From a virus, in IMG/VR virus record IMGVR_UViG_3300028024_000001, positions 1-38,309 of that record: 38,309 nt of DNA; one strand, 5' to 3'. The stretch's first letter is position 1. Each line of letters begins with the position of its first letter. A program made the position numbers and the translations under genes. Below the pieces are notes generated by a model. That model worked only from the letters and a program-made list of their open reading frames with translations, had not been told where the DNA came from and searched no databases. Below, one piece after another: positions 8,858-35,960 of the stretch.

Positions 8858-10472
8858 GATATCGTTTCTTGCATTCTTCCTGATATGGGCCGACCGCATG
8901 CGCTGGACGGTCCCGGACGTGCACGTAATTGCATGTCACTGGCTCGAGCGCCGCGGCGATCTATCGGTGTTCCGATGCTTCCGCGGCTTCGGCAAGTCCA
9001 CACTGCTCGCAATCCACAACGCCTGGCTCTATTACGAAGACCCGACGTTTCGCATCCTGCACCAGTCCGAGGCCGACGGAACGGCCTACAAGACGAGCCG
9101 CGACACCCAGAACGTCATCCGCAATCACCCGCTCACGAAGGGGCTCCTGCCGCCCGGCAAGGGCACGGTCGAGCAATGGTGGATCATCGGCTCGACGGAT
9201 CACCGCAACGCCAACATGTATGCCAAGGGCATCCTGTCGAATGTGACGAGCGCGCGCGCCGACGAGTGCCAGAACGATGACGTCGAAGTCCCGAAGAACA
9301 TCCAGACGCCGGAGGCCCGCGAGAAGCTGCGCTACCGGCTCGGCGAGCAGACGCACATCCTGGTGCCGGGCGGCCGCAAGCTGTACATCGGCACGCCGCA
9401 CACGCACGACTCGCTCTACGACGAAATCGAAAAGCTTGGTGCGGACTGCCTCACGATCAAGATGTTCGAACAGGAACACCGCATCGAGAAGGCGGACAGG
9501 GACAAATACGAGATCCCGTTCAAGCCTGAGTACGTTTTCGCCGGCATTGGCAAATCGACAAAGGTGCTCAGGGAGGGCGTCGACTATTTCGTCGAGGATG
9601 GCAACCGCGTCTGGTTCGCGCATCCGCCCGGCTGCCTGGTCGACTTCTATGCGGGCAGCGCGTGGCCGGAGCGGTTCGACCATGCCGAGATGGAGAAGCG
9701 GCGGCGCGAGACGCGCACCATCAACGAATGGGACAGCCAGTATCAGCTTCATTCGAAGCCGATCGGAGAGGTGCGGCTCGACCCGGAAAAGATGCGGCCG
9801 TACGACGTGCAGCCGGTCGTCGCGCGCGCGAACCGGGAAATGCGCATGATGCTCGGGGCGGCGCGCATCGTAAGCGCCCGCGCGTATTGGGACTGTGCAA
9901 CAGGCAAGGCTGGTGGCGACGATTCCGCGTTGTCGCTGATCCTCGATGATGCCGCGGGAAATTATTACTGGCACGTCGCTCAGGCCATGATCGGCGAGTT
10001 CGCGGTGTTTTCCGACGACAACGCGAAAATCAACGGCGGCCAGGTGATGCAGATATGCGACCTGATCGAGCGCTACTCGATCCCGCAGATCTACGTGGAG
10101 ACGAATGGCGTTGGGTCGTTCGCGCCGCAGTTGCTGCGCAAGGCGATCAGTCAGCGCCGGCTGCAGTGTGGCGTGATTGAGCGCACAGCGACCGTCAACA
10201 AGAACGAGAAGATCCTGGGTGGACTGGAAGGCCCGTTGCGCTCGGGGATCCTGTGGGCGCACGTCGATGTGCTCGACGGCCCTGTGTGGGACCAGATGAA
10301 GCAGTTCAACCCGCTCATCAAGACGCAACCTGACGATTTTATCGATTCGGGTGCATCGGCAATTCTGGAAACCCCAGTCCGCATAGGCAAGTTGGTCGGG
10401 AATTCGACAGGCGATACATCGCAAGATTGGCGTCCATCGACGGGCGTGCATGAGGTGACGCTCGAAATGTAG
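8838..10472 (+). CDS. Terminase large subunit (544 aa from GTG 8838; alternative ATG at 8898)
   Basis: Walker A-like RGFGKST, Walker B-like ADECQNDDVE, and a C-terminal nuclease-like half. Size and position are typical of a T7-like TerL. Confidence 0.85.
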   Translation: MPPVTPKISFLAFFLIWADRMRWTVPDVHVIACHWLERRGDLSVFRCFRGFGKSTLLAIHNAWLYYEDPTFRILHQSEADGTAYKTSRDTQNVIRNHPLTKGLLPPGKGTVEQWWIIGSTDHRNANMYAKGILSNVTSARADECQNDDVEVPKNIQTPEAREKLRYRLGEQTHILVPGGRKLYIGTPHTHDSLYDEIEKLGADCLTIKMFEQEHRIEKADRDKYEIPFKPEYVFAGIGKSTKVLREGVDYFVEDGNRVWFAHPPGCLVDFYAGSAWPERFDHAEMEKRRRETRTINEWDSQYQLHSKPIGEVRLDPEKMRPYDVQPVVARANREMRMMLGAARIVSARAYWDCATGKAGGDDSALSLILDDAAGNYYWHVAQAMIGEFAVFSDDNAKINGGQVMQICDLIERYSIPQIYVETNGVGSFAPQLLRKAISQRRLQCGVIERTATVNKNEKILGGLEGPLRSGILWAHVDVLDGPVWDQMKQFNPLIKTQPDDFIDSGASAILETPVRIGKLVGNSTGDTSQDWRPSTGVHEVTLEM

Positions 10473-10509: not shown

Positions 10510-12459
10510 GTGACAGTCCCAATTCAAACCCCGATCATCGCGTACGTCGGCAATGGCATCACCACCGTATTTGCGTTTCCCTTTGCGATTCTCCAGAGCG
10601 ATGACCTGAAGGTTCTACTGGACAGCGCACCCCAGTCTGTCGGTATTCAGTATTCGATCAACGGAATCGGCAACCCCAACGGCGGCTCGGTCGTTTTCAA
10701 TTCGCCACCGGCGGTGGGCGCGAAGCTGATCCAGTACCGCGATGTCGCAATCGAGCGCGACACCGACTATCAGGACAACGGCGATCTTCTTGCCACCACG
10801 GTGAACGCCGACTTCGACCGGCTGTGGATGGCGCTGCAGGACAAGGCCGCCGCCGGTGGCCGCGCGATCCAGTACCCCATCACTGAATTCGCCACGGACG
10901 GCACCTTGCCGGAAGCGGCGGCGCGCGAGTCGACGATTCTAGGCTTCGACGCGAACGGGGTGCAGACGCTGATCCCGATACCCGCGAGCGTCGGCGCTGG
11001 CGATCTCAGGAATGAGGCATGGACGGCGGGCACTGATTACACCGCCGGCACGTCAAACTCCGTCACGCTGTCGCGTGCATACACGAGCAAGGCGAATCTC
11101 GGCACGGTTGTGATGGCCGGTGTGCCGCAGGACCCGGCGACATACGATCTTGCGCCCGGCGGTATGTCGCTGCTATTCAATGCCATCATCCCTGCCTACG
11201 TCAACCGGATCTGGTGCTATGGCGGAACGACGGCATCGCTCAACACTCCGGCTACGGCCAGTGTCACCGACGCTTCCATTGCACCGGGTACAGCCCTTTA
11301 CGACCGTGTTTTCAACGTTGTAAGCGTCGAAGACCCGCAGTTCGGTGCGTCGCCGGCGGCGGCAGATAACTGGGCCGCAATCCAGGCCGCAGTTACCTAC
11401 TGCCTCGCCCACGGCAAGGCTTTGCGCGTGCCGGGCAAGTACTCGTGCAGCAAGCAGATAACCGGCACGGGTAGCTTGATGGTCTACGGCTACGGCATGG
11501 ATCTGTCAGAGATCAGCTGGCCGGCTACTGCAACGTCCGTTGGTTTGTCGGTAACCCTTTCGCTGAAAGCTTCGTCACTCAGCAGCACCGCTGGCGTGGA
11601 GGATGTCAGTTTTGTCACGGCGGGAGCCGCGGTGGCTGGCTCAACTGCTCTCGCGTTCAAAGGCGCTCTCAATACCTCGGCCGATCGCGTTACGCCACGC
11701 GTAACCGTGAATCGCGTAGCGGTGCGCGGCGCTACGAATCAGGTGAATGACGGGTTCGACGTCGGGCTTTCTTTCGACAACTGCACCGGCGTAGTAGTGG
11801 ATCAATTCAATTGCTGGGGGAAAGTCGGGGCCGGTGGGCAGCCGAACTACGACAGTACCTACGGCATCATCTATACGAACAACTCCGGCGGCACACCTCA
11901 CCCCACCGAGTTCTCATTCCAGCATTGCCGCGTTTATGGCGTGAAGAACGCAATTTATACGCGAGACTTCGAGGGCGGATTTGTCAGCAAGTGCCAACTC
12001 GTCGGCGTCAATACAGGGATTACGTTCTCCACGCCTGGGCCAGGCTACCCGCACGCCATTGCGTGCAACAACCACATCAATGCAAGTGATCTTTGCATCG
12101 CAGTGCCGGGCATGTACGAAGTGCAGATTCACGACAACCTGCTCTACAAGCTGGAAGGGCCAAGCATTGGCACAGGAGTATCGCTGAGCGGCGGCGCGCA
12201 GTTCTGCAACGTGCACGACAACACTTTCGAATGCTACTCACAAAGCCAGGCGATGAACGCGATCGTCGTGTCGGACGCATCGAATAACCTGATTCATTCG
12301 AATATCTTCAGGCGTACAAACAGCATCGACGGCACTGCTCATGGCGTTGGTGTGTGGCTGACTGCCGCTTCGTCAGGCAACAAGCTGGTCGATAGCGGAC
12401 AGATATACGCACTGACGAACACGCCTTATCTGAACCAGGGCAGTAATACAGTCATATAA
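10510..12459 (+). CDS. Tail fiber/tailspike with right-handed beta-helix (pectate-lyase-like) domain (649 aa, GTG start)
   Basis: The N-terminal adaptor region is followed by QFGASPAAADNWAAIQAAVTYCLAHGKALRVPG, the typical start of a pectate_lyase_3-like beta-helix. Repetitive N/G/V-rich coils follow. Confidence 0.7.
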   Translation: MTVPIQTPIIAYVGNGITTVFAFPFAILQSDDLKVLLDSAPQSVGIQYSINGIGNPNGGSVVFNSPPAVGAKLIQYRDVAIERDTDYQDNGDLLATTVNADFDRLWMALQDKAAAGGRAIQYPITEFATDGTLPEAAARESTILGFDANGVQTLIPIPASVGAGDLRNEAWTAGTDYTAGTSNSVTLSRAYTSKANLGTVVMAGVPQDPATYDLAPGGMSLLFNAIIPAYVNRIWCYGGTTASLNTPATASVTDASIAPGTALYDRVFNVVSVEDPQFGASPAAADNWAAIQAAVTYCLAHGKALRVPGKYSCSKQITGTGSLMVYGYGMDLSEISWPATATSVGLSVTLSLKASSLSSTAGVEDVSFVTAGAAVAGSTALAFKGALNTSADRVTPRVTVNRVAVRGATNQVNDGFDVGLSFDNCTGVVVDQFNCWGKVGAGGQPNYDSTYGIIYTNNSGGTPHPTEFSFQHCRVYGVKNAIYTRDFEGGFVSKCQLVGVNTGITFSTPGPGYPHAIACNNHINASDLCIAVPGMYEVQIHDNLLYKLEGPSIGTGVSLSGGAQFCNVHDNTFECYSQSQAMNAIVVSDASNNLIHSNIFRRTNSIDGTAHGVGVWLTAASSGNKLVDSGQIYALTNTPYLNQGSNTVI

Positions 12460-22344: not shown

Positions 22345-22345
22345 G

Positions 22346-23644: not shown

Positions 23645-23700
23645 TGATTTAGTTGCTCTCATTTTTCATTCCATCAATTTCTTAAAGAAAGGAGGTTCCC

Positions 23701-24458: not shown

Positions 24459-24724
24459 GCCTGATACACGAAGTGGTCGCCTGGGACTTCGACATGCCGG
24501 GCCTGAAGAAGATCGTGCTGTTACACCTGTGCCGCAGCGTGCACCGATCGACGCAGGAGGCGCGGCTGCCGATTCACAAGGTCACGTCTGCGTGTGGCAT
24601 CAGTGAGTCGGCGGCGCGCAAGTTCATTGCCGAACTCGAACGCGAGGGCTATATCGCCTTCATTCCGGCGCCGGGCCGCGGCGTGCACTACCGACTGACG
24701 ATCGATTCGAAGGTGCCTGCATGA
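24455..24724 (+). CDS. Winged-HTH protein (89 aa), paralogous to the N-terminus of the replication protein
   Basis: KKIVLLHLCRSV...ACGISESAARKFIAELEREGYI parallels AKFVLTILANCA...ATDQDRKTVIAAIAKLIEIGLV in the next large gene. Confidence 0.55.
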   Translation: MSLIHEVVAWDFDMPGLKKIVLLHLCRSVHRSTQEARLPIHKVTSACGISESAARKFIAELEREGYIAFIPAPGRGVHYRLTIDSKVPA

Positions 24725-24843
24725 TCATCGAGGCCAAAGTTCTGCCGCCGCCGGAAGAGGGCTACGACTACCGGCAGGGTCTGTATCTCCGCTTTGGCGA
24801 TGTGGACTTGGACGTCGCCGCCAATGGCGAGGTGTCTGCGTGA
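24721..24843 (+). CDS. Possible small ORF (40 aa)
   Basis: ATGA overlap upstream and GTGA overlap downstream. Hand translation MIIEAKVLPPPEEGYDYRQGLYLRFGDVDLDVAANGEVSA. Confidence 0.3.
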   Translation: MIIEAKVLPPPEEGYDYRQGLYLRFGDVDLDVAANGEVSA

Positions 24844-25790
24844 GCGTCGAGGCGATTACATGGGCATTGGGGCAGCACGTGGGCCGCTCGACGGCCAAGT
24901 TCGTCCTGACGATCCTCGCCAACTGCGCGGACGGCAAGGAATTCCTCTGCTTCCCGTCCGTTGCCTACATCGCCGAAGCAACCGATCAGGACCGCAAGAC
25001 GGTGATTGCGGCGATTGCAAAGCTTATCGAAATCGGGCTTGTCGAAGATACCGGAGAAAGAAGAGGGACAACGGCGCAGGTCATTGTGTACCGGCTTCTT
25101 GTTGGTAAAAACGGAACTGTTAAAGAGTCCCAAAAACGGAACAGTTCCAAAAACGGAACAGTTCCAAAAACGGCGGGTAACAGTCCCAAAAACGGCGTTA
25201 AACAGTACCGAAAACGGATGGAAACAGTACCGAAAACGGGACACGGAACCGTCATTAAACGTAATGAAACATCAGGAACCGTCAGTCCTGCTTCGCCAAC
25301 GGCTTCGCCGCCGGCTGCGCGCGGTACCCGCTTGCCAAAGGACTGGGTTCTGACAAAGCCTCTTGGCGTATGGGCAGCAGGCGAGCAGCCCACATGGACG
25401 CCCGAGCATATTCGCAAGGTTGCCGCCTCGTTCAAGGATTACTGGATCGCGAAGGCTGGCAAGGATGGACTGAAGACCGACTGGGAAGCAACGTGGCGCA
25501 ACTGGGTACGCAACGAGAAGGCGCTGGGCGGCGCGCAGGCCTCCGCTGGTGCGCCGGTATCGGGAAGCTGGTGGGAGGGCGACGCAGGCATCAATGCGAA
25601 GGGCGCAGAGCTAAGTATTCCCCGCCACAAGGATGAGCCAACGCCGCATTACCTGCTGCGTATCGCGAAGGCTGCCGGGCGCGGTCCCTGGATCGACCAC
25701 ATTCTGCGGCACGCACGCACCAGCGGAGAGCGCTGGTTTAACCAGGTTGTCGCCACGCTTGGCGACGCACTGCTGCCGACGGACTTCTGA
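24840..25790 (+). CDS. Replication initiation protein: N-terminal HTH plus C-terminal DnaT-like domain (316 aa, GTG start)
   Basis: HTH_36-like N-terminus. Central iteron-encoded linker. C-terminal LPKDWVLTKPLGVWAAGE...FKDYWIAKAGKDGLKTDWEATWRNWVRN resembles DnaT-type replication domains. Confidence 0.7.
   Translation: MSVEAITWALGQHVGRSTAKFVLTILANCADGKEFLCFPSVAYIAEATDQDRKTVIAAIAKLIEIGLVEDTGERRGTTAQVIVYRLLVGKNGTVKESQKRNSSKNGTVPKTAGNSPKNGVKQYRKRMETVPKTGHGTVIKRNETSGTVSPASPTASPPAARGTRLPKDWVLTKPLGVWAAGEQPTWTPEHIRKVAASFKDYWIAKAGKDGLKTDWEATWRNWVRNEKALGGAQASAGAPVSGSWWEGDAGINAKGAELSIPRHKDEPTPHYLLRIAKAAGRGPWIDHILRHARTSGERWFNQVVATLGDALLPTDF
25107..25252. repeat. Iteron array (about 7 copies), putative origin of replication inside the replication gene
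   Basis: Units CC(C)AAAAACGGAACAGTT x2 are exact. Variants are CCAAAAACGGCGGGTAACAGT, CCCAAAAACGGCGTTAAACAGT, ACCGAAAACGGATGGAAACAGT and ACCGAAAACGGGACACGGAACCGT. An AT-rich stretch follows. Confidence 0.8.
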
Positions 25791-25792
25791 CC

Positions 25793-26284
25793 ATGGCGAA
25801 GAACGCACTCCGCTACCCGGAAAGCGCCATTGCTGGCGGACGCTTCGGCACGGCCCGCGTGGCGGGTGAGATTTCTGGTGCGGCGGCGCGCTTGACGTCG
25901 ACTGAGCCCGCACCGCTCGAATCGCCGATCAAGCAGCTTGTCGGCGGCGCGCGTGGCTCACATCGCGAGTTGGGGCGGCTGGGCGGCGGAACGATGAACA
26001 AGTCGGAGGCTGCATACGCCGCGCACCTCGACGCGCTGCGCTCAATTGGTCAGGTGCTCTGGTTCCGCTTCGAAGGTGTGAAACTGCGCCTCGCCGATAA
26101 CACGTTCTATACCCCCGACTTCGCTGTGATGGTCGCCGGCGGCGCGCTGGAAATGCACGAATTCAAGGGATTCATGGAAGAGGACGCGAACGTCAAGATC
26201 AAGACGGCCGCCTCGCAGTATCCGTTCACGTTCCGCCTGGTGCGCAAGGCCAAGGGCGGTGGTTTCGATATCAGGGAGGTGTGA
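25793..26284 (+). CDS. DUF1064-like (PD-(D/E)xK-type) protein, possible Holliday-junction resolvase (163 aa; domain begins near Met at 25994)
   Basis: The C-terminal 96 aa, SEAAYAAHLDAL...FEGVKLRLADNTFYTPDFAV...EFKGFMEEDANVKIKTAASQYP, fit the DUF1064 pattern. Confidence 0.5.
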   Translation: MAKNALRYPESAIAGGRFGTARVAGEISGAAARLTSTEPAPLESPIKQLVGGARGSHRELGRLGGGTMNKSEAAYAAHLDALRSIGQVLWFRFEGVKLRLADNTFYTPDFAVMVAGGALEMHEFKGFMEEDANVKIKTAASQYPFTFRLVRKAKGGGFDIREV

Positions 26285-26934
26285 TGGGCGCTAAATGGTC
26301 AGAGGCTGAGGTGGCGGTCCTCGCGGATGTGGCAAAAACAGGAGTGACGCTGCGTTCGCAGATGCATCGCCTTCCGGGTCGCACGCACGAAGCCGCACGC
26401 ACGTATGCCGCGCGAATTGGCATCCCGCTCTCGGCGGCGCGCGCGTGGACCAAAGAGGAGCGCGCGATCCTCAAGCGCATCTGGCGCAGCGGCGAGCAAA
26501 TCAAGATCGGCATGCGTCAACTGCCGAACAGGAGCTACGCTGCCGCGCGCGGCGAGGCGCAACGGCTTCGCATCTGCGGTGACCGGACAAAGCGAAATGG
26601 CTATTCGTGGGTCGACGCGGCGATAACCGTGCTGCTTGCTGACGGCGTGCGCATGACCATCAAGCAATTGACCGCGGCGACTGGCGCATCCCCAAATGCG
26701 GTCGACAAGGCGCTGAACCGGCGGCGCGGTACCAAGTTCAGGGTTTGCGACTGGACTCGCGTCTCACGGAATGGTGATTGGGCTGGTGTGTGGGGACTCG
26801 GCGTTGGCGAGGATGCGCCGCGGCCGCCGAGAAAGACGCCTAGCGAAGTCGCGAAGACATGGCGTGCTCGGCGTCGGATCGCTGGCGGCGCGCATAACCC
26901 GTTTGCCGGTTTGATTCAGCAGGTAGCGGCGTGA
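26284..26934 (+). CDS. Hypothetical protein with two SANT/Myb-like WxE repeats (216 aa)
   Basis: ATGA coupling. Repeats KWSEAEVAVL and AWTKEERAILKRIW. Confidence 0.45.
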   Translation: MGAKWSEAEVAVLADVAKTGVTLRSQMHRLPGRTHEAARTYAARIGIPLSAARAWTKEERAILKRIWRSGEQIKIGMRQLPNRSYAAARGEAQRLRICGDRTKRNGYSWVDAAITVLLADGVRMTIKQLTAATGASPNAVDKALNRRRGTKFRVCDWTRVSRNGDWAGVWGLGVGEDAPRPPRKTPSEVAKTWRARRRIAGGAHNPFAGLIQQVAA

Positions 26935-27224
26935 GCCACCGGGCAAACAAGCGTGAGCGTGAGCATATGGGCCGGGTTGCCGGAATGCAGTGCATCTGCT
27001 GCTTCCTGCTCGATCGTGCGCAGACCAGCAAAACTGAGGTACATCACGTTCGCGTTGGTCATGGCGGCGCTCAGCGCGCCGGCGACTTCTGCACCGTTCC
27101 GTTATGTGCCAATGACTGCCACCGCGGCAAAAACGGGGTGCACGGCGATCAGACGTATCTGCACATTCTGAAGATGACGCAGATTGATCTGCTTAACGCA
27201 ACGCTGGAGCGGCTCTACGGATGA
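26931..27224 (+). CDS. Ref-like / HNH-type recombination enhancement nuclease (97 aa, GTG start)
   Basis: Pattern HMGRVAGMQCICC...EVHHVRVGHGGAQRAGDFCTVPLCANDCHRGKNGVHG resembles the P1 Ref family. Confidence 0.5.
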   Translation: MSHRANKREREHMGRVAGMQCICCFLLDRAQTSKTEVHHVRVGHGGAQRAGDFCTVPLCANDCHRGKNGVHGDQTYLHILKMTQIDLLNATLERLYG

Positions 27225-27511
27225 GATTGCTGGTTCGAATGGTGCTGCCGTTTGAGTCGTACGAGGGCTCGCAGTTGTTCGAGTGCCTCGCCAAGCGCGT
27301 GATACGCGCCGAAGACGACCCGGAATGCGCGGATGCGGTGCTGGTCGATGTGGACTTGCCGGAGCGTTACAGCGGCTTCGCAATTGCCCGGTACTGGAAT
27401 CGCGATGGAACGTATCGGGTCGAGGCGTTGGTGAAGCACAACCGCAGATCGCTGGCCGCGTTCATCGCAAGCGGCGATCACGAATGGGATCTGAGAAATG
27501 ACGAATTGTAA
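27221..27511 (+). CDS. Hypothetical protein (96 aa)
   Basis: ATGA coupling, with coding-like composition. Confidence 0.45.
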   Translation: MRLLVRMVLPFESYEGSQLFECLAKRVIRAEDDPECADAVLVDVDLPERYSGFAIARYWNRDGTYRVEALVKHNRRSLAAFIASGDHEWDLRNDEL

Positions 27512-27839
27512 GGAAATTGAAGGATACATCCCGCAAGACTGCGCGCCGGTCTCGCGCACGCACGCACACGCGCGCGTGCATTTGAGCGACCAGCTCATTG
27601 CTGAGCTTTGCGTGGTGTCGGCAAGCATGGCGCGGCGCGAACGCTTGACCGGCCGCGCGCTGAACATCGAGCAATTCGCCGAGAACGTGATTCGCGCGAC
27701 GGTGGGCGCGATTAATTCGATGGGCGACGATTCGCGATATCGCGAGTGGGAGTTCGAAAAGATCGCAATCGCATGTTTGAGCGACGAGCAGGCAGAACAG
27801 AGTTTCGCGCGCTGGAAGGGCTGTCAGTACCAGGCCTGA
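27498..27839 (+). CDS. Hypothetical protein (113 aa)
   Basis: Overlaps the upstream gene by 14 nt. No family recognised. Confidence 0.45.
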   Translation: MTNCKEIEGYIPQDCAPVSRTHAHARVHLSDQLIAELCVVSASMARRERLTGRALNIEQFAENVIRATVGAINSMGDDSRYREWEFEKIAIACLSDEQAEQSFARWKGCQYQA

Positions 27840-27880
27840 ATCGATTTATCCCGTAGCACCACATCCACAGGAGCAACAGC

Positions 27881-28339
27881 ATGGACGAGCAGCAAAAGCA
27901 GGAAGACCAAGTGGCGGATGCATCGCCGAGCAGCACTGAAGCGCAACTGGCCGGTGATTCCCCAAACGTTGCCACGCTTGCGGCCGCCCAATCCGCAAGC
28001 GACACCTCGTCATCTGTGCCGAGTGCATCGCCCGCCAGCGACACAGGGGCGGCTGCATCGTCCGATCAAGCCGCAGGTGATCTGGGAAACGTTGTGGCCG
28101 CTGCCGACGGTGGCGACCAGTCGGCTGGCGGTGTAGTTGCCGCTGGTGGTGACGCGGGAAACGTCCTGGCTGGTGGTGCCCCGCTTGTGGGCATTACCAG
28201 CACTTCGATTGATGAGTCGACTGACTATCATCCGGCGAAGCCGCACCTGTCGGCGTTGCGCCGCAAGATCGAATCGGGCGAGGCAATCCTCATGTCCGAT
28301 CTGCTGCGCCTGATCCACGCGATCGAGGAGACGCTCTGA
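27881..28339 (+). CDS. Hypothetical acidic, Ser/Ala/Gly-rich protein (152 aa)
   Basis: RBS AGGAGC. Low-complexity N-terminal two thirds and a structured C-terminal tail. Confidence 0.45.
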   Translation: MDEQQKQEDQVADASPSSTEAQLAGDSPNVATLAAAQSASDTSSSVPSASPASDTGAAASSDQAAGDLGNVVAAADGGDQSAGGVVAAGGDAGNVLAGGAPLVGITSTSIDESTDYHPAKPHLSALRRKIESGEAILMSDLLRLIHAIEETL

Positions 28340-28560
28340 TGGCATCGAACACTCCAACTTCACAGCTCGGACTGCCGAGGGGCGGCTTTCGAGATAGCCC
28401 GGTGAAAACCTTCGTCATTACAAACACGCATGGCGAGAAACACGAAGTGGCTGGCAACAGGTATGACGTCGACGGTTGCTATGTTTCGGTTGTCAAGGCT
28501 GGCGAGGTGGTTGCCTCGTTTGCCAACTGGATGTCGATTCGCGTTAAGGAAATAGCCTGA
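28339..28560 (+). CDS. Hypothetical protein (73 aa)
   Basis: The ATG overlaps the upstream TGA. Confidence 0.45.
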   Translation: MASNTPTSQLGLPRGGFRDSPVKTFVITNTHGEKHEVAGNRYDVDGCYVSVVKAGEVVASFANWMSIRVKEIA

Positions 28561-28564
28561 GCTT

Positions 28565-28834
28565 ATGACGAAACAACTCGCCCCTGCACCGCTGGTCAAC
28601 TGGTCTCGCATTCTCGACGAGGTGCGAGGGGCGGGTTACACCATCAAGGAAATCTCGCAGTACACGCAGATCCCGCGCACGACACTGCTCGGGTATCACA
28701 ACCTTGGCGCCGAGCCGCGGCACTCGAGCGGGCAGATGCTGCTGCGATTCTGGGCTCAGGTGACCGATCGCGATCCTGAGAGCGCCCCAACGTGGACGCC
28801 GCCGCCGAGCGTGGCCGAATACCGGCGGATGTGA
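28565..28834 (+). CDS. HTH protein (89 aa), candidate late-gene regulator
   Basis: AGYTIKEISQYTQIPRTTLLGYHN is HTH-like. It is the last gene before the late module, and its stop is 1 nt from the 19-bp late motif. Confidence 0.4.
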   Translation: MTKQLAPAPLVNWSRILDEVRGAGYTIKEISQYTQIPRTTLLGYHNLGAEPRHSSGQMLLRFWAQVTDRDPESAPTWTPPPSVAEYRRM

Positions 28835-28835
28835 A

Positions 28836-28854
28836 TTGGTCGGGATTCCGACAG
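28836..28854 (+). promoter_or_regulatory. 19-bp conserved motif TTGGTCGGGATTCCGACAG, copy 1, upstream of the first late gene
   Basis: Perfect repeat of 34295-34313. Contains the inverted repeat GTCGG-GATT-CCGAC. Confidence 0.5.
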
Positions 28855-28899
28855 CCTGACGGCCAAATACTCGCCGCACCACGGATGGAGGTTCGAGCG

Positions 28900-29397
28900 A
28901 TGGCAAGAGAGTACAAGACGCAGCAGCCGGGCATGCCGACGGCGCCGGTTGATGGTGGCGACGCGGCCAAAGTTGTGCTGGCTGGCGTGGGCGATAATGA
29001 CGCGGTGATGCAGATCGCCGGCCGCGACGTGCCGATCAACGACATCGTCGAGGGCGCATTCGAGACGAGCGGGTTGTCTGCCGAGGAATGGAATGCTGCG
29101 GAGCCGACGAAGCGCGATGAACTTATCGCCGGCAAGCGCAAGGAACTTGAAACGATGTTCCGCAACGCTGGCGACCTGCCGTCGCAGGATGCCGCCCGCG
29201 AACAGGCTCAGGCGGCTGTTTCGGCCCGCCGCGCCGCTCGCGCCGCTCAACCTGCCGCAGATGGCACCACGGCCGCTGCGCCGCCCCTCCCGCATTCGAG
29301 CGAAGTCGATCCCGCCACACTGGCCGCGCCGAAGCTGTGCGCGGATGGCTGGCTGGTGCCGACGATCCAGAAGCAACTCCCGCAGAACTTCCGCTGA
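28900..29397 (+). CDS. Hypothetical protein, first gene of the late module (165 aa)
   Basis: GGAGGT RBS 7 nt upstream of ATG 28900. The listed ORF start at 28792 overlaps the motif and lacks an RBS. Confidence 0.5.
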   Translation: MAREYKTQQPGMPTAPVDGGDAAKVVLAGVGDNDAVMQIAGRDVPINDIVEGAFETSGLSAEEWNAAEPTKRDELIAGKRKELETMFRNAGDLPSQDAAREQAQAAVSARRAARAAQPAADGTTAAAPPLPHSSEVDPATLAAPKLCADGWLVPTIQKQLPQNFR

Positions 29398-29404
29398 GGC
29401 GATC

Positions 29405-29674
29405 ATGGGCAATTTCAGCTTTTCGAAGTTCCTCGACCCGGGCGGCCTGTGGACGAAAGACCAGACCGCTACGCCCGCGACCACGACGACGGTCGCGGGT
29501 GCTGCCGATGCTGCTGACGCCCAGGCGGCGCAGGCGGCGAACGCTCAGGCCGCAGCCGACAAGAAGAAGCGCGCGGCATCAAGCCTGCTTGCTACTGGCG
29601 CCGGTGCGACCGGTGCAGGCGCCACGACGACTTCGTCCGTGATGGCGCAGGGCAAGACGTCACTGGGCCAATAA
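29405..29674 (+). CDS. Small Ala/Thr/Gly-rich protein upstream of portal (89 aa)
   Basis: ATG at 29405, in the same frame as listed ORF 29093-29674. Adjacent to the portal gene. Confidence 0.45.
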   Translation: MGNFSFSKFLDPGGLWTKDQTATPATTTTVAGAADAADAQAAQAANAQAAADKKKRAASSLLATGAGATGAGATTTSSVMAQGKTSLGQ

Positions 29675-29677
29675 TCC

Positions 29678-31300
29678 ATGTCCTACACCCTCGGCGAGAC
29701 GCTCTACAAGCGGATGGAAGCACTGAAGTCCGCGCGCACCGTGCATGAACTGGTGTGGCGCGACTGCTTCATGCTCACCGATCCGATTCGCGCATCTGGC
29801 CTGCAGGGGCCGGTGATGGACGCGAACGAGATCGCGCGCGCCGTCTCGCTGATTTTCGACTCGACCGCGAGCGACGCAAAGCGCGTGCTGAACGCCTCGA
29901 TCATGTCGGGCATGACGCCGGCCAACTCGCTGTGGTTCAAGATGCGCGTGAATGGCGAGGACGACGAGGGAACGCGCTGGCTCGACGACGCGAGCGAGCT
30001 GCTGTGGGAGAACATCCACAATGCGAATTTCGATTCTGAGGCATCCGATTGCGTCGACGATTGCATGGGCGCTGGCTGGTTCGCGCTCTATATCGATGAA
30101 GACCGCGACAACGGCGGACTCTATTTCGAACACTGGCCGATGGCTGGCGTCTACGTGGCGTCGTCGCGTCCCGGCGGTCGTATCGACACTGTGTTTCGCC
30201 CGTATAAGCTCACCGCCGAGCAGGCCGTTACCGAGTTCAGCAAGCGCGGTGACAACCTGCCGAAGCAGATCACCGACGCGGCTGAGACGACGCCTGACCG
30301 GCAGTTCGAGTTCTGCCACTGCATCTACCCGCGCGGCGTCTCAGTCGTCGGCGCGGTCCGCTCGAAGAATCTCCCGATCGCCTCGGTCACGCTGTGCTGC
30401 GACGTGAAGGCAACCGTCCGAGAATCCGGCTACCACGAAATGCCGGTGGTGGTCGCGCGCTGGAAGAAGATTCCGAATAGCTGCTATGGCGTTGGCCCGG
30501 TGCTCGACGCACTGCCGGACATCCGCACGCTGAACGACATCGTCAAGCTGGAATACGCAAATCTCGACATGGCTGTGTCGGGCATGTGGATCGCCGAGGA
30601 TGACGGCGTGCTGAATCCGCGCACGGTCAAGGTGGGTCCGCGAAAGATCATCGTCGCGAACTCGGTGGATAGCATGAAGCCGCTGCAGCCCGCTGCGAAC
30701 TTCAATGTCGCATTCACCGAGAAAGAAAAGCTGCAGGGCAACATCCGCCGCACGCTGATGGCTGACCAGTTGCAGCCGCAGGATGGACCGGCGATGACGG
30801 CCACTGAAGTGCATGTGCGCGTCGACCTGATCCGCCAGTTGCTTGGCCCGATCTATGGCCGCCTGCAGGCCGAATACCTGCAGCCGCTGATCACCCGCTG
30901 TTTCGGTCTGGCGTATCGCGCTGGCGTTTTTGCGCCGCCGCCCGACTCTCTGGCTGGCCGCAATTTCTCGGTCCAGTATCAGTCGCCGCTCGCGCGCGCC
31001 CAGAAGCTCGAGGAAGTGACCGCGATCGAGCGCTTCATGGGCGATGTCTCCGTGATTGCCCAGGTTGATCCGAGTGTGATGGACAACGTCGACACCGACG
31101 AGGCCGCACGACAGACCGCGAAGGGGCTCGGCGTGCCGGATTCGATCATTCGCCCGTCCGACAAGGTGCTTGAGTTCCGTCAGAAGAAGCAGGCGGCTGC
31201 CGCGCAGGCCCAACAGCAGCAGCTTGGCATGGAAGTTCAGGGTGACGTGATGAAGTCCGTCGGCTCCGCGGCGGCTAACCGGATGGTGGCACAGCAATGA
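29678..31300 (+). CDS. Portal (head-tail connector) protein, T7 gp8-like (540 aa)
   Basis: Size, position and sequence character (ELVWRDCF...DSTA...WF...) fit the podovirus head-to-tail connector family. Confidence 0.8.
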   Translation: MSYTLGETLYKRMEALKSARTVHELVWRDCFMLTDPIRASGLQGPVMDANEIARAVSLIFDSTASDAKRVLNASIMSGMTPANSLWFKMRVNGEDDEGTRWLDDASELLWENIHNANFDSEASDCVDDCMGAGWFALYIDEDRDNGGLYFEHWPMAGVYVASSRPGGRIDTVFRPYKLTAEQAVTEFSKRGDNLPKQITDAAETTPDRQFEFCHCIYPRGVSVVGAVRSKNLPIASVTLCCDVKATVRESGYHEMPVVVARWKKIPNSCYGVGPVLDALPDIRTLNDIVKLEYANLDMAVSGMWIAEDDGVLNPRTVKVGPRKIIVANSVDSMKPLQPAANFNVAFTEKEKLQGNIRRTLMADQLQPQDGPAMTATEVHVRVDLIRQLLGPIYGRLQAEYLQPLITRCFGLAYRAGVFAPPPDSLAGRNFSVQYQSPLARAQKLEEVTAIERFMGDVSVIAQVDPSVMDNVDTDEAARQTAKGLGVPDSIIRPSDKVLEFRQKKQAAAAQAQQQQLGMEVQGDVMKSVGSAAANRMVAQQ

Positions 31301-31551
31301 AGGCGAACATTCCCGGCGCAGCGCCGCCCGTTGCCACGCCGGCGGAATATGCGCTGCTGTTCGAATCGAAGGCGGGCGAGCTGGTGCTCGAAGACCTCGT
31401 TAATCGGTTCGCTGGATCGACCTACGTGCGTGGTGGGCTCGAGGCGCAGCGTGAAACTGATTTCCGGTCTGGAAAGCGCGATGTGGTCGAGTTCATCTTG
31501 AGGCAGATCAACCGCGCGAACAGCGCTGAACCGATAGAGCAAGGGAATTGA
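31297..31551 (+). CDS. Hypothetical protein (84 aa), conserved partner of portal in BPP-1-type podoviruses
   Basis: ATGA coupling to portal. My assignment to a Bbp19-like family comes from memory only. Confidence 0.4.
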   Translation: MKANIPGAAPPVATPAEYALLFESKAGELVLEDLVNRFAGSTYVRGGLEAQRETDFRSGKRDVVEFILRQINRANSAEPIEQGN

Positions 31552-31552
31552 T

Positions 31553-31759
31553 ATGAAGCTGGCGACGCTAACTGCGAGTGGTTGGTCGTGCAACCCGCTC
31601 AAATTTGATGATGATTCGGGTCATCACGAGTATGGCTACGACGGCGTCGGGAACCTGATAACCGATACGTGGATTGTCGGCAGTAAAACGTACGTTAAAA
31701 CGTTTACCTATGTAGGCACCACCCTGGCTACTCAGGGTGACTGGATTGAGCAGCCATGA
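31553..31759 (+). CDS. Hypothetical protein (68 aa) with a single YD-repeat-like motif
   Basis: YGYDGVGNLITD resembles the YD/RHS repeat core. Shares the N-terminal SGWSCNP motif with ORF 33070-33276. AT-richer than its neighbours. Confidence 0.4.
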   Translation: MKLATLTASGWSCNPLKFDDDSGHHEYGYDGVGNLITDTWIVGSKTYVKTFTYVGTTLATQGDWIEQP

Positions 31760-33033
31760 GCTTCCCGCCACCCACTCCTGTTAGCCCGAGTCAGTTCAAT
31801 CTGCAACTGGTAAATTCAGGCGTCGCCGCACTTGCGCAACCCGACGGCGGCATTCGCCAGATGGTGAACCTCGCGCGCTTCACTGAGGATCTGACGTGGG
31901 GTGCCGTGGTGCTCAGCCCCTCGACGCTCATAAGCACCGGCCCGACGCCCGCCTCCATCAATGCGACGGTAAACGGAAGGCTGATGCCTTTGACTGGCCT
32001 GCTTCCGACCGGGTTCAGCAGTAGCGTCGAGCATCGGTATAGCGCTGTGAGTCTGACGCCATTCTTCGCAGGCTCGAAATACCTGGTCTCGTATTACGTC
32101 TATGCGCCGCAGGACACTTATTTCTACATGCGTCCAATAGCTACGACGGGCTCGCAGGGGCACGGCATTCGCGGTGTGCGCGCGGGTCAGTTCAAGCGTG
32201 TCTGGACGCTATTTGCTGCCACAAGTCAGACGGCAATTGATCCGGGCGTGGCCGCTGAAACGGCACTCGGTTCAGGCTCCGGTGTGCAGCCTCACTTCTA
32301 TCAGGCCGGCTTGCCGGGCACGAAGCCGATTTATGTCGGGGGCTTCCAGATCGAAGCCGTAGCGCCGACCACTAAAAACGGCATCATGATTATCGGAGAT
32401 TCGACCGTCGCAGGATCAAGCGGCAAGATCGATACGTGCCGGGATTTCACCGACCCGAACAACGCTGAATGGTCCACGCATCTGGCGGTCGCACTTAACT
32501 GCGACTGCTATAACCGCGGCGTTGGCGGCGAGACACTGACGAGCATGCTCGCGCGCTGGGATACCGACATGACGCCGCTCGCCGCGAACTCGGCGTACTG
32601 CATCATCCAGGGCGGCATCAACGACATCAACACCGCGCACTCGCTCTCGCAGATGCAATCCGATCTACAAGGGATGGTTGCGAAGGCTGTCACGAACGGC
32701 TTCACGATGAATGGCCTGACCGGGACCATACGCCTTATCGCTGTCGCGCCCACCGGCTATTTCACTGGCGATGCGACCAAAGAACCGCTGCGTCTTGCCT
32801 ATAACGCATGGCTGAAGCAGACCTATGGCGCAGCCGTGCTGGACTACAACGCGGACATCCAGAATCCGTGGACGGCTGCGCACGATTCGCTGAACCCGGC
32901 CTATTTCCAGAACGAAACGCCGAACGTGCACCCGAATGGTATCGGGCGAGAGGTGGAGGCTCATCGGATCGCCATGAGCGGAAATTTTTCGCTACTTCCA
33001 ACCCCATCGCCGTATCAGCGGCAACAGTCTTAA
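31756..33033 (+). CDS. SGNH/GDSL hydrolase (esterase) with an N-terminal jelly-roll/CBM-like domain (425 aa)
   Basis: SGNH block I IIGDSTVAG, block II GVGGET, block III QGGINDI, and block V-like NVHPNGIG. Confidence 0.7.
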   Translation: MSFPPPTPVSPSQFNLQLVNSGVAALAQPDGGIRQMVNLARFTEDLTWGAVVLSPSTLISTGPTPASINATVNGRLMPLTGLLPTGFSSSVEHRYSAVSLTPFFAGSKYLVSYYVYAPQDTYFYMRPIATTGSQGHGIRGVRAGQFKRVWTLFAATSQTAIDPGVAAETALGSGSGVQPHFYQAGLPGTKPIYVGGFQIEAVAPTTKNGIMIIGDSTVAGSSGKIDTCRDFTDPNNAEWSTHLAVALNCDCYNRGVGGETLTSMLARWDTDMTPLAANSAYCIIQGGINDINTAHSLSQMQSDLQGMVAKAVTNGFTMNGLTGTIRLIAVAPTGYFTGDATKEPLRLAYNAWLKQTYGAAVLDYNADIQNPWTAAHDSLNPAYFQNETPNVHPNGIGREVEAHRIAMSGNFSLLPTPSPYQRQQS

Positions 33034-33069
33034 GCGGTGTCGTCTCACATCATCTGAGGGATATTAATC

Positions 33070-33276
33070 ATGGCAGGAACTTCAACACTTGGCGGCTCCG
33101 GCTGGACGGCTAACCCGACGCCCGACACGCGTTTCGCGAAAACGATCTCGATTCCGTCCGTGATCGGTCAGCCCGCAGCCGAGATCGGCGCACCTGGCGA
33201 TCTGGCGATCGACGTGGTTGCGCGCAAGCTGTACGAGAACGTCGCTGGCACGTGGTCGGCTGGCACGTCGTACTGA
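33070..33276 (+). CDS. Hypothetical protein (68 aa)
   Basis: The SGWTANP motif is paralogous to that in ORF 31553. GAPGDLAIDVVARKLYENVAGTWS resembles fiber-tip motifs. Confidence 0.4.
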   Translation: MAGTSTLGGSGWTANPTPDTRFAKTISIPSVIGQPAAEIGAPGDLAIDVVARKLYENVAGTWSAGTSY

Positions 33277-33306
33277 TTTTTCAACGCAGCAGCGAGGACA
33301 CGAAAA

Positions 33307-34258: not shown

Positions 34259-34282
34259 GCCCCGCTTCGGCGGGGCTTTTTT
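34259..34282 (+). terminator. Rho-independent terminator between scaffold and capsid genes
   Basis: GCCCCGC-TTCG-GCGGGGC followed by TTTTTT. Confidence 0.85.
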
Positions 34283-34294: not shown

Positions 34295-34313
34295 TTGGTC
34301 GGGATTCCGACAG
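34295..34313 (+). promoter_or_regulatory. 19-bp conserved motif TTGGTCGGGATTCCGACAG, copy 2, upstream of the capsid gene
   Basis: Identical to 28836-28854. Lies 13 nt after the terminator T-run and 161 nt before the capsid ATG. Confidence 0.5.
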
Positions 34314-34473
34314 TTCATCTGAAAGAACATCGTGCTCATTCGGCCCGCAGTGGCGTGCGGACACCCGAGAAGCCCGATGCATCGCGTTCGCCGACGCGAT
34401 GCCGTATTACAGGCCCGGTAACGGACACCCTGGAAGGCGACAAGAACACATCGAACCTTTTGGGAGCCATTCC

Positions 34474-35364
34474 ATGAACACGGCAGTCAACGACAGCATC
34501 ACCGCCGCATTTGTCCAGCAGTTTGCGGACACTTACATGATGGTCGCGCAGCAGAAAGAGTCGCGACTTCAGGCAACCGTCACCGACGTTGGTGGCGTAA
34601 CCGGCACTTCTTTCACCGCGAACAACATCGCCGCGACCCAGGCCAATCAGGTGACCAGCCGTCTCGGCGACACCGAATGGTCGGACAACGCGAACGATAC
34701 GCGCGTGATCATGATGGGCGATTGGGACTGGGCGACGCCCGTCGATACGTTCGACGTTCCGAAGCTGAAGGCCAACCCCGGCGGCACGTACACGCAGAAC
34801 GGCGTGGCCGCGATGAATCGCGCGAAGGATGCTGTGATCTACAACGCGGCGCTGAATGCATCGATCACGCGCGCTGCTGAAGCAACGCCGTACGGCACGA
34901 TCGCGCTTCCGTCGAGCCAGAAAATCGTGGACGGCGGCACCGGCATGACGAAGGCCAAGCTGATCACCTGCAAGAAGCTGTTCCGCAAGGCCGAGGCCGA
35001 CGAACAGAACGGCGAAGAACTGTACATGCTGTACGACGCCGAAATGCTCGAGGACATCCTGAGCGACACGACGCTGACGTCGGCAGACTTCATGGCCGTG
35101 CAGATGCTGCAGGACGGCAAGCTGTCCGGCAAGTGGCTCGGCTTCAACTGGATTCCGTACGAAGCCCTGAAGACGGTCAGCACGGTAAAGACCACGGTCG
35201 CGTACACGAAGACGGGCATCCAGTTCGGCACCGGCATGAACCGCGTTGTCGATATCGGCCCGCGCCGCGACAAGAAGAACGCGACGCAGATCTACATCCA
35301 GGAGTCGTACGGCGCTGGCCGAATCCAGGAAAACAAGGTCGTCACCATCGACTACCAGTTCTGA
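34474..35364 (+). CDS. Major capsid protein (296 aa)
   Basis: GGGAG RBS, very high GC3, and position after scaffold. The listed ORF start at 34399 has no RBS. Confidence 0.8.
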   Translation: MNTAVNDSITAAFVQQFADTYMMVAQQKESRLQATVTDVGGVTGTSFTANNIAATQANQVTSRLGDTEWSDNANDTRVIMMGDWDWATPVDTFDVPKLKANPGGTYTQNGVAAMNRAKDAVIYNAALNASITRAAEATPYGTIALPSSQKIVDGGTGMTKAKLITCKKLFRKAEADEQNGEELYMLYDAEMLEDILSDTTLTSADFMAVQMLQDGKLSGKWLGFNWIPYEALKTVSTVKTTVAYTKTGIQFGTGMNRVVDIGPRRDKKNATQIYIQESYGAGRIQENKVVTIDYQF

Positions 35365-35926: not shown

Positions 35927-35960
35927 ATGCCGGGGGTTCGCGCTCCCGGCATTTTTGTTT
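35927..35960 (+). terminator. Rho-independent terminator after the decoration gene
   Basis: ATGCCGGG, a 10-nt loop, CCCGGCAT, then TTTTGTTT. Confidence 0.7.

What the first reader, a model, noticed from the sequence alone, without database searches (positions are those of the whole stretch)
28836..28854. A perfect 19-bp hairpin motif (TTGGTCGGGATTCCGACAG) precedes both late transcription units
The same 19-mer occurs at 28836-28854 and at 34295-34313. The first copy lies 1 nt after the stop of the HTH gene 28565-28834 and 46 nt before the first late gene. The second lies just after a strong terminator and before the major capsid gene. The motif contains the inverted repeat GTCGG/CCGAC around GATT. 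No sigma70-like -35/-10 pair is obvious at either site, and the phage encodes no RNA polymerase of its own. It is therefore a candidate late promoter, an activator-binding site for the adjacent HTH protein, or an RNA processing/antitermination hairpin. A weaker relative (GGTCGGGATCTCGCCGAC, 15011-15028) lies just after the glycine-rich gene.
Basis: seen in the sequence. Interest (0 to 1): 0.65.

Follow-up and report, generated by a model that had tools for sequence, protein, structure and literature searches.

The report
Conserved late promoter with activator site
The repeated 19-base motif is most likely the upstream half of this prophage's late-gene promoters, probably switched on by the small DNA-binding protein encoded right next to it, and the same pair recurs in hundreds of uncharacterised prophages of Burkholderia, Pseudomonas, Salmonella and Yersinia.

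Summary
The 19-mer is exact at 28836 and 34295. A third copy with 2 mismatches lies at 10392, inside the 3' end of the terminase gene and upstream of the tailspike gene.

The window is a circular, roughly 38.2-kb temperate podophage with T7-like structural genes and no RNA polymerase or sigma gene. In 80 relatives with portal identity down to 55%, plus Yersinia phage YeP5, the core GTCGGGAWNCCGAC sits at the same positions, always on the late-gene strand.

Thirteen bases after the core lies a -10-type hexamer. Its A and T are each kept in 135 of 139 unique sites. This places the dyad at about -39 to -26, where a -35 box would normally be, and no -35 box is present.

The 89-aa HTH gene ending 1 nt before copy 1 is the only non-structural gene shared across the family (73 of 80 loci). 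Its model has an XRE/Cro fold. Lineages with altered recognition helices carry matching motif changes at all their sites.

Best reading: activator-dependent late promoters, a new variant of a known kind. An RNA hairpin role is disfavoured. The supposed relative at 15011 is not supported. Nothing here has been tested experimentally.

The parts
28836..28854 (+). Motif copy 1 (core dyad 28839-28852). Upstream element of the first late promoter, which drives 28900 onward, the portal and the scaffold.
   Evidence: Exact 19-mer. PWM score 43.2 bits. The same position after the HTH gene is occupied in relatives.
28866..28871 (+). -10-type hexamer AATACT of late promoter 1. The predicted start is about 28878, leaving a 5' UTR of roughly 21 nt that contains GGAGG.
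   Evidence: Sequence read. It lies at core positions +28 to +33, where A29 and T33 are each kept in 135 of 139 unique sites.
34295..34313 (+). Motif copy 2 (core 34298-34311). Upstream element of the capsid promoter.
   Evidence: Exact 19-mer. PWM score 40.8 bits. The arrangement 'terminator, motif, capsid' is conserved in relatives.
34325..34330 (+). -10-type hexamer GAACAT of the capsid promoter. The predicted start is about 34338, the A of CAT.
   Evidence: The conserved 5' UTR begins at this CAT in relatives.
10392..10410 (+). Motif copy 3 with 2 mismatches (core 10395-10408), embedded in the 3' end of the terminase large subunit gene. Candidate promoter for the tailspike and lysis genes. 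Its -10-type hexamer CAAGAT is at 10422-10427.
   Evidence: 22.5 bits. It is conserved 71-74 nt before the terminase stop, or just after it, in relatives down to 57% terminase identity. Third codon positions inside the motif are constrained.
28565..28834 (+). Gene for an 89-aa HTH protein, the proposed cognate activator and the last gene of the early-right operon.
   Evidence: Matches phrog_16553. AF2 model has pLDDT 86.8 with the recognition helix at residues 38-47. XRE/Cro-type fold. Present in 73 of 80 relatives, against at most 12 for any other early gene. Its recognition helix co-varies with the motif.
34259..34276 (+). Intrinsic terminator that ends the portal-scaffold transcription unit just before copy 2.
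   Evidence: Seven G-C pairs followed by TTTTTTG. Conserved in relatives.
35927..35952 (+). Intrinsic terminator after the capsid unit.
34338..34473 (+). Structured 5' leader of the capsid mRNA, made of two similar stem-loop modules. It starts at the predicted transcription start.
   Evidence: RNAalifold on 15 relatives predicts 16 pairs, 6 of them with compensatory changes. Not in Rfam.
34474..35364 (+). Major capsid gene, the target of promoter 2.
   Evidence: PF19821 at E 2e-68 and phrog_3437.
10510..12459 (+). Tailspike or tail fibre gene, followed by holin and endolysin. These are the targets of promoter 3.
   Evidence: phrog_1640. Holin and endolysin.

Best explanation
The 19-mer is the upstream recognition element of the phage's late promoters. 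Each promoter has three parts:
- a 14-bp dyad, GTCGGGA(W)(N)CCGAC, with an A/T-rich or TTG 5' flank;
- 13 variable bases;
- a sigma70-type -10 hexamer of the form nAnnnT.

With transcription starting about 7 nt after the hexamer, the dyad spans roughly -39 to -26. Its centre falls at about -32.5, exactly where a -35 hexamer would sit, and there is none.

The inferred mechanism runs as follows. The 89-aa XRE/Cro-fold protein from 28565-28834 is made at the end of the early-right operon. It binds the dyad as a dimer and recruits or stabilises host sigma70 RNA polymerase on promoters that the polymerase cannot use alone. This turns on three late units:
- 28900 through portal and scaffold;
- the capsid;
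- tailspike plus lysis.

Shown by computation: the conservation, spacing, strand bias and positions of the sites; the co-occurrence and co-variation with the HTH gene; and the fold of the protein. Inferred only: the actual transcription start sites, binding, dimerisation, activation rather than repression, and use of sigma70.
For: 1. Three copies where 0.01 is expected, and a PWM trained on relatives recovers only these three in the window.

2. The exact motif recurs at all three equivalent positions in IMG/VR relatives while the immediate flanks diverge.

3. In 80 portal-selected relatives the core regex matches 149 times on the late-gene strand and 3 times on the other, all 3 being perfect palindromes. 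At a PWM threshold of 12 bits there are 192 sites, all on the + strand.

4. Among 139 unique sites, A at +29 and T at +33 are each kept in 135, while positions +15 to +27 are nearly free. This is the A(-11)/T(-7) signature of a -10 hexamer at fixed spacing. The spacing is retained in lineages with variant motifs.

5. The simple sigma70 scan finds no -35/-10 pair in 22000-38309.

6. Sites always precede late units. In Yersinia phage YeP5 the four copies precede the lysis genes, the first late gene, the capsid (after a terminator) and a gene at 33112. In a Pseudomonas relative chosen through the HTH protein alone they precede the holin, the pre-portal genes and the capsid. In a Salmonella relative chosen the same way they follow the HTH gene and precede the capsid.

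7. The HTH gene is present in 73 of 80 relatives, against at most 12 for any other early gene. It ends at or near the first site.

8. Five lineages with a changed recognition helix carry a changed dyad at their late sites, for example:
- TTCGGG..CCCGAA with R37 to L at all three sites of one genome;
- GTCAGGATTCTGAC;
- GTCAAGATGTTGAC.

9. The fold resembles small dimeric XRE regulators, including restriction-modification controller proteins that activate from dyads overlapping the -35 region.

10. Synonymous sites are constrained where the motif lies inside the terminase gene.
Against: - There is no experimental start site, binding or expression data for any member.
- A protein bound across the -35 position more often represses than activates.
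- The Foldseek matches are weak in E-value (about 0.03), and the family reaches no curated Pfam threshold.
- The co-variation events are few (about 5 to 8 lineages) and were read by eye, not tested on a tree.
- The symmetric half-site changes would also fit a base-paired stem.
- In copy 3 the -10-type hexamer overlaps conserved Asp-Trp codons, so its conservation there is partly coding.
- No fourth promoter was found for the tail and internal-virion genes after the terminator at 35927-35952, so part of late transcription must depend on read-through.
Confidence: 0.72

Rival explanations
1. The motif works as an RNA hairpin (GUCGG-GAUU-CCGAC) in read-through transcripts. It would be a processing site, a stability element, or a boxB-like antitermination signal bound by a phage protein.
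For: A perfect 5-bp stem with a 4-nt loop is present. Copy 3 keeps pairing through a G-U wobble. Three variant lineages change both arms symmetrically.
Against: Among 120 unique sites, 30 departures break a pair on one side, 7 are G-U and only 4 are compensated. The stem sequence is otherwise invariant from Yersinia to Burkholderia phages, which points to base-specific recognition rather than pairing. Loop positions G6 and A7 and the 5' flank are also invariant. Copy 2 lies just after a strong terminator, so little read-through RNA would contain it. The fixed-distance -10 hexamer has no role in this model. No Rfam family matches.
Confidence: 0.05
2. The motif plus the downstream hexamer is a promoter read directly by an alternative sigma factor or another host factor. 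The neighbouring HTH protein would then have some other role.
For: The core contains GGGAAC/GGGAAT-like strings that recall ECF -35 elements, and a bipartite element at fixed spacing is what a sigma factor would read.
Against: The downstream element has the housekeeping A-N3-T signature, not ECF, sigma28, sigma32 or sigma54 consensus features (my comparison with textbook consensus sequences, applied to the profile). Hosts range from Yersinia and Salmonella to Pseudomonas and Burkholderia, so a shared specialised host factor is unlikely. No sigma domain is found in the window. This model does not explain the dyad symmetry, the universal linkage to the HTH gene, or the helix-motif co-variation.
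Confidence: 0.1
3. The HTH protein binds the dyad as a repressor or timer of late promoters, occluding the -35 region, rather than as an activator.
For: A dimer centred at about -32.5 overlaps the place where polymerase contacts DNA. Most XRE-family proteins are repressors, and phrog_16553 is labelled 'transcriptional repressor'.
Against: The promoters have no -35 element to occlude and would be weak on their own. The gene lies at the end of the early lytic operon, immediately before the late genes, which is the position of a positive late regulator. No other conserved regulator is available to turn late genes on. A repressor operator would not need to be the most conserved element of every late promoter across the family.
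Confidence: 0.08
4. The repeats are chance matches, remnants of a mobile repeat, or recombination 'boundary' sequences with no role in transcription.
For: Three exact-pattern hits in IMG/VR lie in unrelated contexts (L003, L006, L015). The motif sits at module junctions of a mosaic genome.
Against: Expectation in the window is 0.01 against 3 observed. The 192 sites across relatives are all on one strand, each with a -10 at fixed spacing. The three odd hits are about what my rough estimate gives for chance matches to a 4-fold degenerate 19-mer in a collection of that size.
Confidence: 0.01

Closest known systems
Controller (C) proteins of restriction-modification systems and their C-boxes (C.AhdI, C.Esp1396I, C.PvuII, C.BclI)
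   Same: These are small (about 75-85 aa) XRE-fold HTH proteins that bind dyad-symmetric sites as dimers. Their sites overlap the -35 region of a promoter with a poor -35, and they activate host sigma70 polymerase (established knowledge). They are among the best Foldseek matches to the model.
   Different: C proteins autoregulate from tandem OL/OR boxes upstream of their own gene and switch to repression at high dose. Here single dyads lie downstream of the gene, at three separate late promoters. The sequence similarity is not significant, and there is no linkage to a restriction enzyme.
Lambda cII at PRE, PI and PaQ
   Same: An HTH activator whose roughly 14-bp site straddles the -35 region of promoters that lack a usable -35 hexamer, so transcription depends on the activator (established knowledge).
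   Different: cII is a tetramer that reads direct repeats (TTGC-N6-TTGC) and serves lysogeny, not late genes. The Pfam Phage_CII model does not match the HTH protein.
Phage middle and late activators acting with host polymerase: Mu Mor and C, P2 Ogr / P4 Delta, T4 MotA with AsiA
   Same: A phage-encoded protein made early turns on several -35-less promoters that share a conserved upstream box at fixed distance from a -10 element. MotA boxes are centred near -30 and Mor/C dyads at -43.5 (established knowledge).
   Different: The protein folds and families are different, and no PHROG or Pfam match to them was found. The dyad centre here is about -32.5, and no AsiA-like co-factor was identified.
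T7-group phage promoters (phi10, then gene 10, then T-phi)
   Same: The structural gene order is T7-like. A conserved element of about 20 bp is repeated before late units, including one just before the capsid gene with a terminator after it.
   Different: T7 promoters are read by a phage single-subunit RNA polymerase, and this phage has none. The element here also needs a separate -10 hexamer.
Lambda Q with its binding element at PR'
   Same: The regulator gene is the last gene of the delayed-early operon and lies immediately upstream of the late promoter.
   Different: Q is an antiterminator acting at a constitutive promoter that is followed by a terminator. Here the promoter lacks a -35, no terminator follows copy 1, separate copies follow each terminator, and the protein is an 89-aa XRE-fold domain.

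Membership tests
Sigma70-type promoter | A -10 hexamer with conserved A(-11) and T(-7) | tested here: met
   The hexamers are AATACT, GAACAT and CAAGAT at core positions +28 to +33. A29 and T33 are each kept in 135 of 139 unique sites in relatives.
Sigma70-type promoter | A -35 hexamer resembling TTGACA, 16-18 bp upstream of the -10 | tested here: not met
   The corresponding bases are GGATTC or GGAATT, matching 0-1 of 6. The consensus scan found no promoter-like pair in 22000-38309.
T7-like phage RNA polymerase promoter | A phage-encoded single-subunit RNA polymerase | tested here: not met
   All large ORFs are annotated as something else; the 868-aa ORF matches virion protein phrog_684. No RNAP hit appears in PHROGs or Pfam.
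Lambda Q-type antitermination (Q binding element) | A Q-family protein, a constitutive promoter and a terminator shortly downstream | tested here: not met
   No Q family match. No -35 is present. No terminator lies between copy 1 and the ATG at 28900.
RNA hairpin element (boxB-like or processing site) | Base pairing maintained by compensatory changes across relatives | tested here: not met
   Among 120 unique sites there are 30 one-sided pair-breaking changes, 7 G-U and 4 compensated. No Rfam match.
XRE / Cro-C1 HTH superfamily | A lambda-repressor-like helical fold with helix 2-turn-helix 3 | tested here: met
   The AF2 model has pLDDT 86.8 with helices at 13-22, 27-34, 38-47 and 53-67. Foldseek probability is about 1.0 and target-normalised TM 0.55-0.68 against ImmR, C.AhdI, SinR and P22 c2.
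XRE / Cro-C1 HTH superfamily | Sequence membership (Pfam HTH_3 or HTH_31 above the gathering score) | tested here: not met
   The window protein has no Pfam hit at E of 1 or below. 23 of 51 relatives give only sub-threshold HTH_3 hits, the best at E 0.0025.
Restriction-modification controller (C) protein with C-box | Tandem dyads (OL/OR) upstream of its own gene and linkage to a restriction-modification operon | tested here: not met
   The dyads are single and lie downstream of the gene, at late promoters. The only methyltransferase (20295-21512) is 7 kb away on the other strand.
Dimeric operator-binding regulator (functional class) | Protein binds the dyad as a dimer | not testable with these tools
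   This is only inferred, from the 14-bp dyad, the symmetric half-site changes and the fold. It needs EMSA, footprinting or a structure of the complex.
Mu Mor/C, P2 Ogr, T4 MotA and lambda cII activator families | Sequence or profile similarity to the family | tested here: not met
   No such PHROG or Pfam family matches the protein or 51 of its relatives. A PDB profile search gives only generic HTH hits at E of 0.008 or weaker.

The most novel reading that the evidence does not exclude
The 89-aa protein does not merely assist polymerase from an adjacent site. Its dimer occupies the exact position of sigma70 region 4 (dyad centre about -32.5). It would then act as a surrogate -35 reader, so that sigma region 4 is displaced or re-docked onto the activator. 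This would be a one-protein counterpart of T4 MotA/AsiA sigma appropriation, built on an XRE fold. The natural specificity variants (G..C to T..A with R37 to L, GTCAG..CTGAC, GTCAA..TTGAC) would then form a ready-made set of orthogonal activator-promoter pairs.
Probability: 0.15. Interest if true: 0.75.

Novelty: new variant of a known kind. Interest (0 to 1): 0.55.

Why it matters
Temperate podophages with T7-like virion genes but no RNA polymerase are common as prophages in Burkholderia, Pseudomonas and Enterobacterales. How they switch on late genes has not been described.

If the reading is right, one small protein and one roughly 35-bp promoter architecture explain late transcription for the whole group. 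The protein family has 1388 cluster representatives at 50% identity. The result gives:
- exact predicted start sites and operators to test;
- a simple marker for annotating late operons in such prophages;
- natural protein-site specificity variants that could be used to study HTH recognition or as orthogonal expression switches.

Tried and rejected
1. A megablast of 27500-35500 against GenBank phages found nothing. The closest cultured relatives are only at protein level: YeP4-6 at 56% portal identity.

By my estimate a 14-base pattern is too short for 596 Gb, so the scan was wasted.

3. Burkholderia phage KL4, Alcaligenes phage Piluca, Escherichia phage vB_EcoM_APEC and Acinetobacter phage TPWB-05 have related virion genes. 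KL4, Piluca and TPWB-05 also have distant HTH homologues. None has the motif. I did not find what replaces it.

4. I compared the profile by eye with textbook consensus sequences for sigma54 (GG-N10-GC), sigma32, sigma28, ECF sigma factors and LexA (CTGT-N8-ACAG). None fits the invariant positions or the spacing.

5. The TTGACG at 34281-34286 looks like a -35 but lies 38 nt from the -10, so I rejected it.

6. L006 carries the exact 19-mer, but in the lysogeny region of an unrelated prophage and with the -10 out of register. With L003 and L015 it is best treated as a chance hit.

7. The APSE and YeP papers say nothing about promoters in these phages.

Full report
**Observation.** The 19-mer TTGGTCGGGATTCCGACAG is exact at 28836-28854 and 34295-34313 on the + strand. 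A third copy with two mismatches, TTGGTCGGGAATTCGACAG, lies at 10392-10410. Three matches are found where 0.01 is expected. Copy 1 begins 1 nt after the stop of ORF 28565-28834 and ends 45 nt before the ATG at 28900. Copy 2 follows the strong intrinsic terminator 34259-34276 and precedes the capsid ATG at 34474. Copy 3 lies within the last 80 nt of the terminase large subunit gene, 100 nt before the tailspike gene.

**Genome context.** The window has an exact 127-bp terminal overlap, so it is a circular contig of about 38.2 kb. It is a temperate podophage with T7-like virion genes:
- connector PF12236, scaffold, and capsid PF19821;
- tail tubular proteins A and B, and internal virion proteins;
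- a T7-type terminase, tailspike, holin and endolysin.

It also carries an integrase, an excisionase, a CI-like repressor and a lambda-like early-right operon. No RNA polymerase or sigma factor is encoded. The 868-aa ORF is a virion protein (phrog_684), and the early genes give only HTH or replication-type hits.

**Conservation.** A scan of IMG/VR for the motif found 16 stretches. Thirteen sit at the three equivalent positions in related phages, with the immediate flanks diverged.

I then fetched 80 relatives through the portal protein, at 97% to 55% identity. The core GTC[AG]GGANNCCGA[AC] occurs 149 times on the late-gene strand. It occurs 3 times on the other strand, and all 3 are perfect palindromes.

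A matrix trained on relatives alone picks out only the three window sites, at 43.2, 40.8 and 22.5 bits (shuffle maximum 2.8). At a threshold of 12 bits there are 192 sites in the window plus relatives, all on the + strand.

The induced Yersinia enterocolitica phage YeP5 (portal 56% identical) has four + strand copies: before the lysis genes, before the first late gene, after a terminator before the capsid, and before a gene at 33112. More distant phages (Piluca, vB_EcoM_APEC, TPWB-05, KL4) lack the motif.

**Promoter anatomy.** In 139 unique sites the information profile shows four features:
- a 5' flank AAATA or TTTG;
- the 14-bp core;
- about 13 nearly free positions;
- a hexamer whose A (+29) and T (+33) are each kept in 135 of 139 sites.

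This is the A(-11)/T(-7) signature of a sigma70 -10 element. In the window the hexamers are AATACT (28866-28871), GAACAT (34325-34330) and CAAGAT (10422-10427).

A start about 7 nt downstream puts the core at roughly -39 to -26, with the dyad centre at about -32.5. That is the place of a -35 hexamer, yet the bases there match TTGACA at 0-1 of 6 positions. The consensus scan finds no -35/-10 pair.

At the capsid site, conservation of the 5' leader begins at the predicted start, CAT at 34337-34339. At copy 1 the predicted leader is about 21 nt and carries a GGAGG ribosome-binding site.

Where the motif is inside the terminase gene, it is kept 71-74 nt before the stop, or moves to just after the stop, in relatives down to 57% identity. 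Third codon positions in the motif codons are 0.94, 0.94, 0.69 and 0.88 identical, against about 0.4-0.6 nearby.

**DNA site rather than RNA hairpin.** The stem bases are conserved as sequence. Among 120 unique sites, 30 departures break a pair on one side, 7 give G-U and only 4 are compensated. Loop positions G6 and A7 and the 5' flank are invariant as well. Copy 2 sits just past a strong terminator. Rfam has no match.

**The adjacent HTH protein.** Of all non-structural genes in the window, only 28565-28834 is shared by relatives: 73 of 80 loci, against at most 12 for any other early gene. It is always on the late strand, just upstream of the first site.

Loci chosen through the protein alone also carry the sites at the expected places. 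These include a Salmonella enterica assembly and a Pseudomonas-type contig.

The family is large and unnamed:
- the word-indexed profile search finds 340 proteins;
- all 120 listed are unnamed or 'hypothetical protein' with no Pfam domain, apart from one UniRef label 'XRE family transcriptional regulator';
- the exhaustive search finds 1388 representatives at E of 1e-3 or better and 488 at 1e-10 or better;
- members reach only sub-threshold generic HTH models, and no solved structure is similar in sequence.

The AlphaFold model (pLDDT 86.8) has helices at 13-22, 27-34, 38-47 and 53-67. It matches XRE/Cro-type domains, including ImmR, the restriction-modification controller proteins C.AhdI, C.Esp1396I and C.BclI, SinR and P22 c2. 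Foldseek probability is about 1.0 and target-normalised TM 0.55-0.68, but E is only about 0.03.

**Co-variation.** Lineages whose recognition helix departs from the usual [R/K][S/T/A][T/A][L/V/I]xG[W/Y] pattern carry changed dyads at their late sites, with the -10 spacing unchanged.

| Lineage | Dyad at late sites | Recognition helix |
|---|---|---|
| Window | GTCGGGATTCCGAC | IPRTTLLGY |
| Contig 3300020047_007610 and L266 | TTCGGGAWNCCGAA at the post-HTH, pre-capsid and terminase sites | VPLSTLAGY (R37 to L) |
| L028 | GTCAGGATTCTGAC at both sites | VTKPSIMNY |
| L033 | GTCAAGATGTTGAC and CCAGGATGTTGAC | IPRTSLAFY |
| L030-32 | CAAGATTCCGAC | ISRSNLTTY |
| L091 | GTCGAGAAACCGAC and GTCGAGAAACGGGC | VPRATLMAW |

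A change shared by all sites of a genome, together with a change in the regulator, is what a trans-acting specificity shift predicts. The events are few and I did not test them on a tree.

**Mechanism and rivals.** The best-supported reading (confidence 0.72) is a set of activator-dependent late promoters. The HTH protein is made last in the early operon. It binds the dyad, probably as a dimer, and lets host sigma70 polymerase use promoters that have a -10 but no -35.

Terminators after the scaffold and capsid genes, with a fresh promoter after the first, would set the relative amounts of the late products. The genes after the second terminator have no detected promoter and must rely on read-through.

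The rivals are:
- an RNA hairpin (0.05);
- direct reading by an alternative sigma or host factor (0.10);
- the HTH protein acting as a repressor of these promoters (0.08);
- chance or a non-transcriptional repeat (0.01).

**Comparison with known systems.** It works most like the restriction-modification controller proteins, lambda cII, Mu Mor/C or T4 MotA. Each is a phage or mobile-element protein that activates -35-less promoters from a conserved box at fixed distance from the -10. It is not a sequence member of any of those families. It is not a T7-type promoter, since there is no phage polymerase. It does not fit the Q antitermination layout.

None of the six core variants searched occurs in any searchable paper, and the papers on YeP4-6 and on APSE relatives do not discuss promoters. 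I therefore rate it a new variant of a known kind, of moderate interest.

**Limits.** Every functional statement is inferred from sequence comparison. The one genome-contig scan was wasted on a pattern too short for that collection, so host names come from protein sources and two look-ups.

Noticed in passing
window 34338-34473: The capsid mRNA leader is strongly conserved in relatives as far as the Pseudomonas clade. It folds into two similar modules, each an outer stem, an inner hairpin such as CCGCA..TGCGG, and an internal ACACCC loop. RNAalifold predicts 16 pairs, 6 with compensatory changes. It is not in Rfam and its function is unknown; it could affect stability or translation.
   Followed up: partly
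window 1-127 and 38183-38309: There is an exact 127-bp terminal overlap, so the window is a circular assembly of about 38,182 bp cut inside the tail tubular protein B gene (36563 to the end, continuing at 1-789).
   Followed up: yes
window 31553-33033: A 425-aa GDSL/SGNH acylhydrolase gene and the small ORF before it sit between the portal and scaffold genes. Neither has a homologue in any of the 80 relatives (0 loci). They look like an inserted accessory gene (a moron) inside the late operon.
   Followed up: no
It has a longer loop, no -10 at the right distance, and scores below 8 bits. It is most likely a chance resemblance.
   Followed up: yes
window 10473-10495: A G+C-rich inverted repeat (GCGCCGCCCGGCGGCGC) lies directly after the terminase stop codon and has no T-run. 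It would sit in the leader of the tailspike transcript made from the third promoter.
   Followed up: no
L006 4233-4251 (- strand): The exact 19-mer occurs in the large intergenic region next to a CI-like repressor and an integrase of an unrelated prophage fragment. The -10-like sequence is 2 nt out of register, and no HTH homologue lies in the 6.8 kb held. It is probably chance, but a recombination remnant is not excluded.
   Followed up: partly
L366 8541, 10143, 13974 (and the 'AAATAGTCGGGA' clade in general): In the Pseudomonas-type clade the lysis cassette lies between the HTH gene and the portal operon and has its own copy of the motif. These phages therefore have three copies within 6 kb. 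The middle two bases of the core differ by site class: TT at the first site, AC at the second and AA before the capsid.
   Followed up: partly
L231 about 6530: The terminase gene of IMGVR_UViG_2526164745_000001 has an in-frame stop in its last 50 codons while the embedded motif is intact. This could be a sequencing error or a decaying prophage.
   Followed up: no
L099 17438-17842, L101 29110-29517, L097 1814-2083: Piluca, TPWB-05 and KL4 encode distant homologues of the HTH protein with different recognition helices, and they lack the canonical motif. They may use a different, still unidentified late-promoter box.
   Followed up: no
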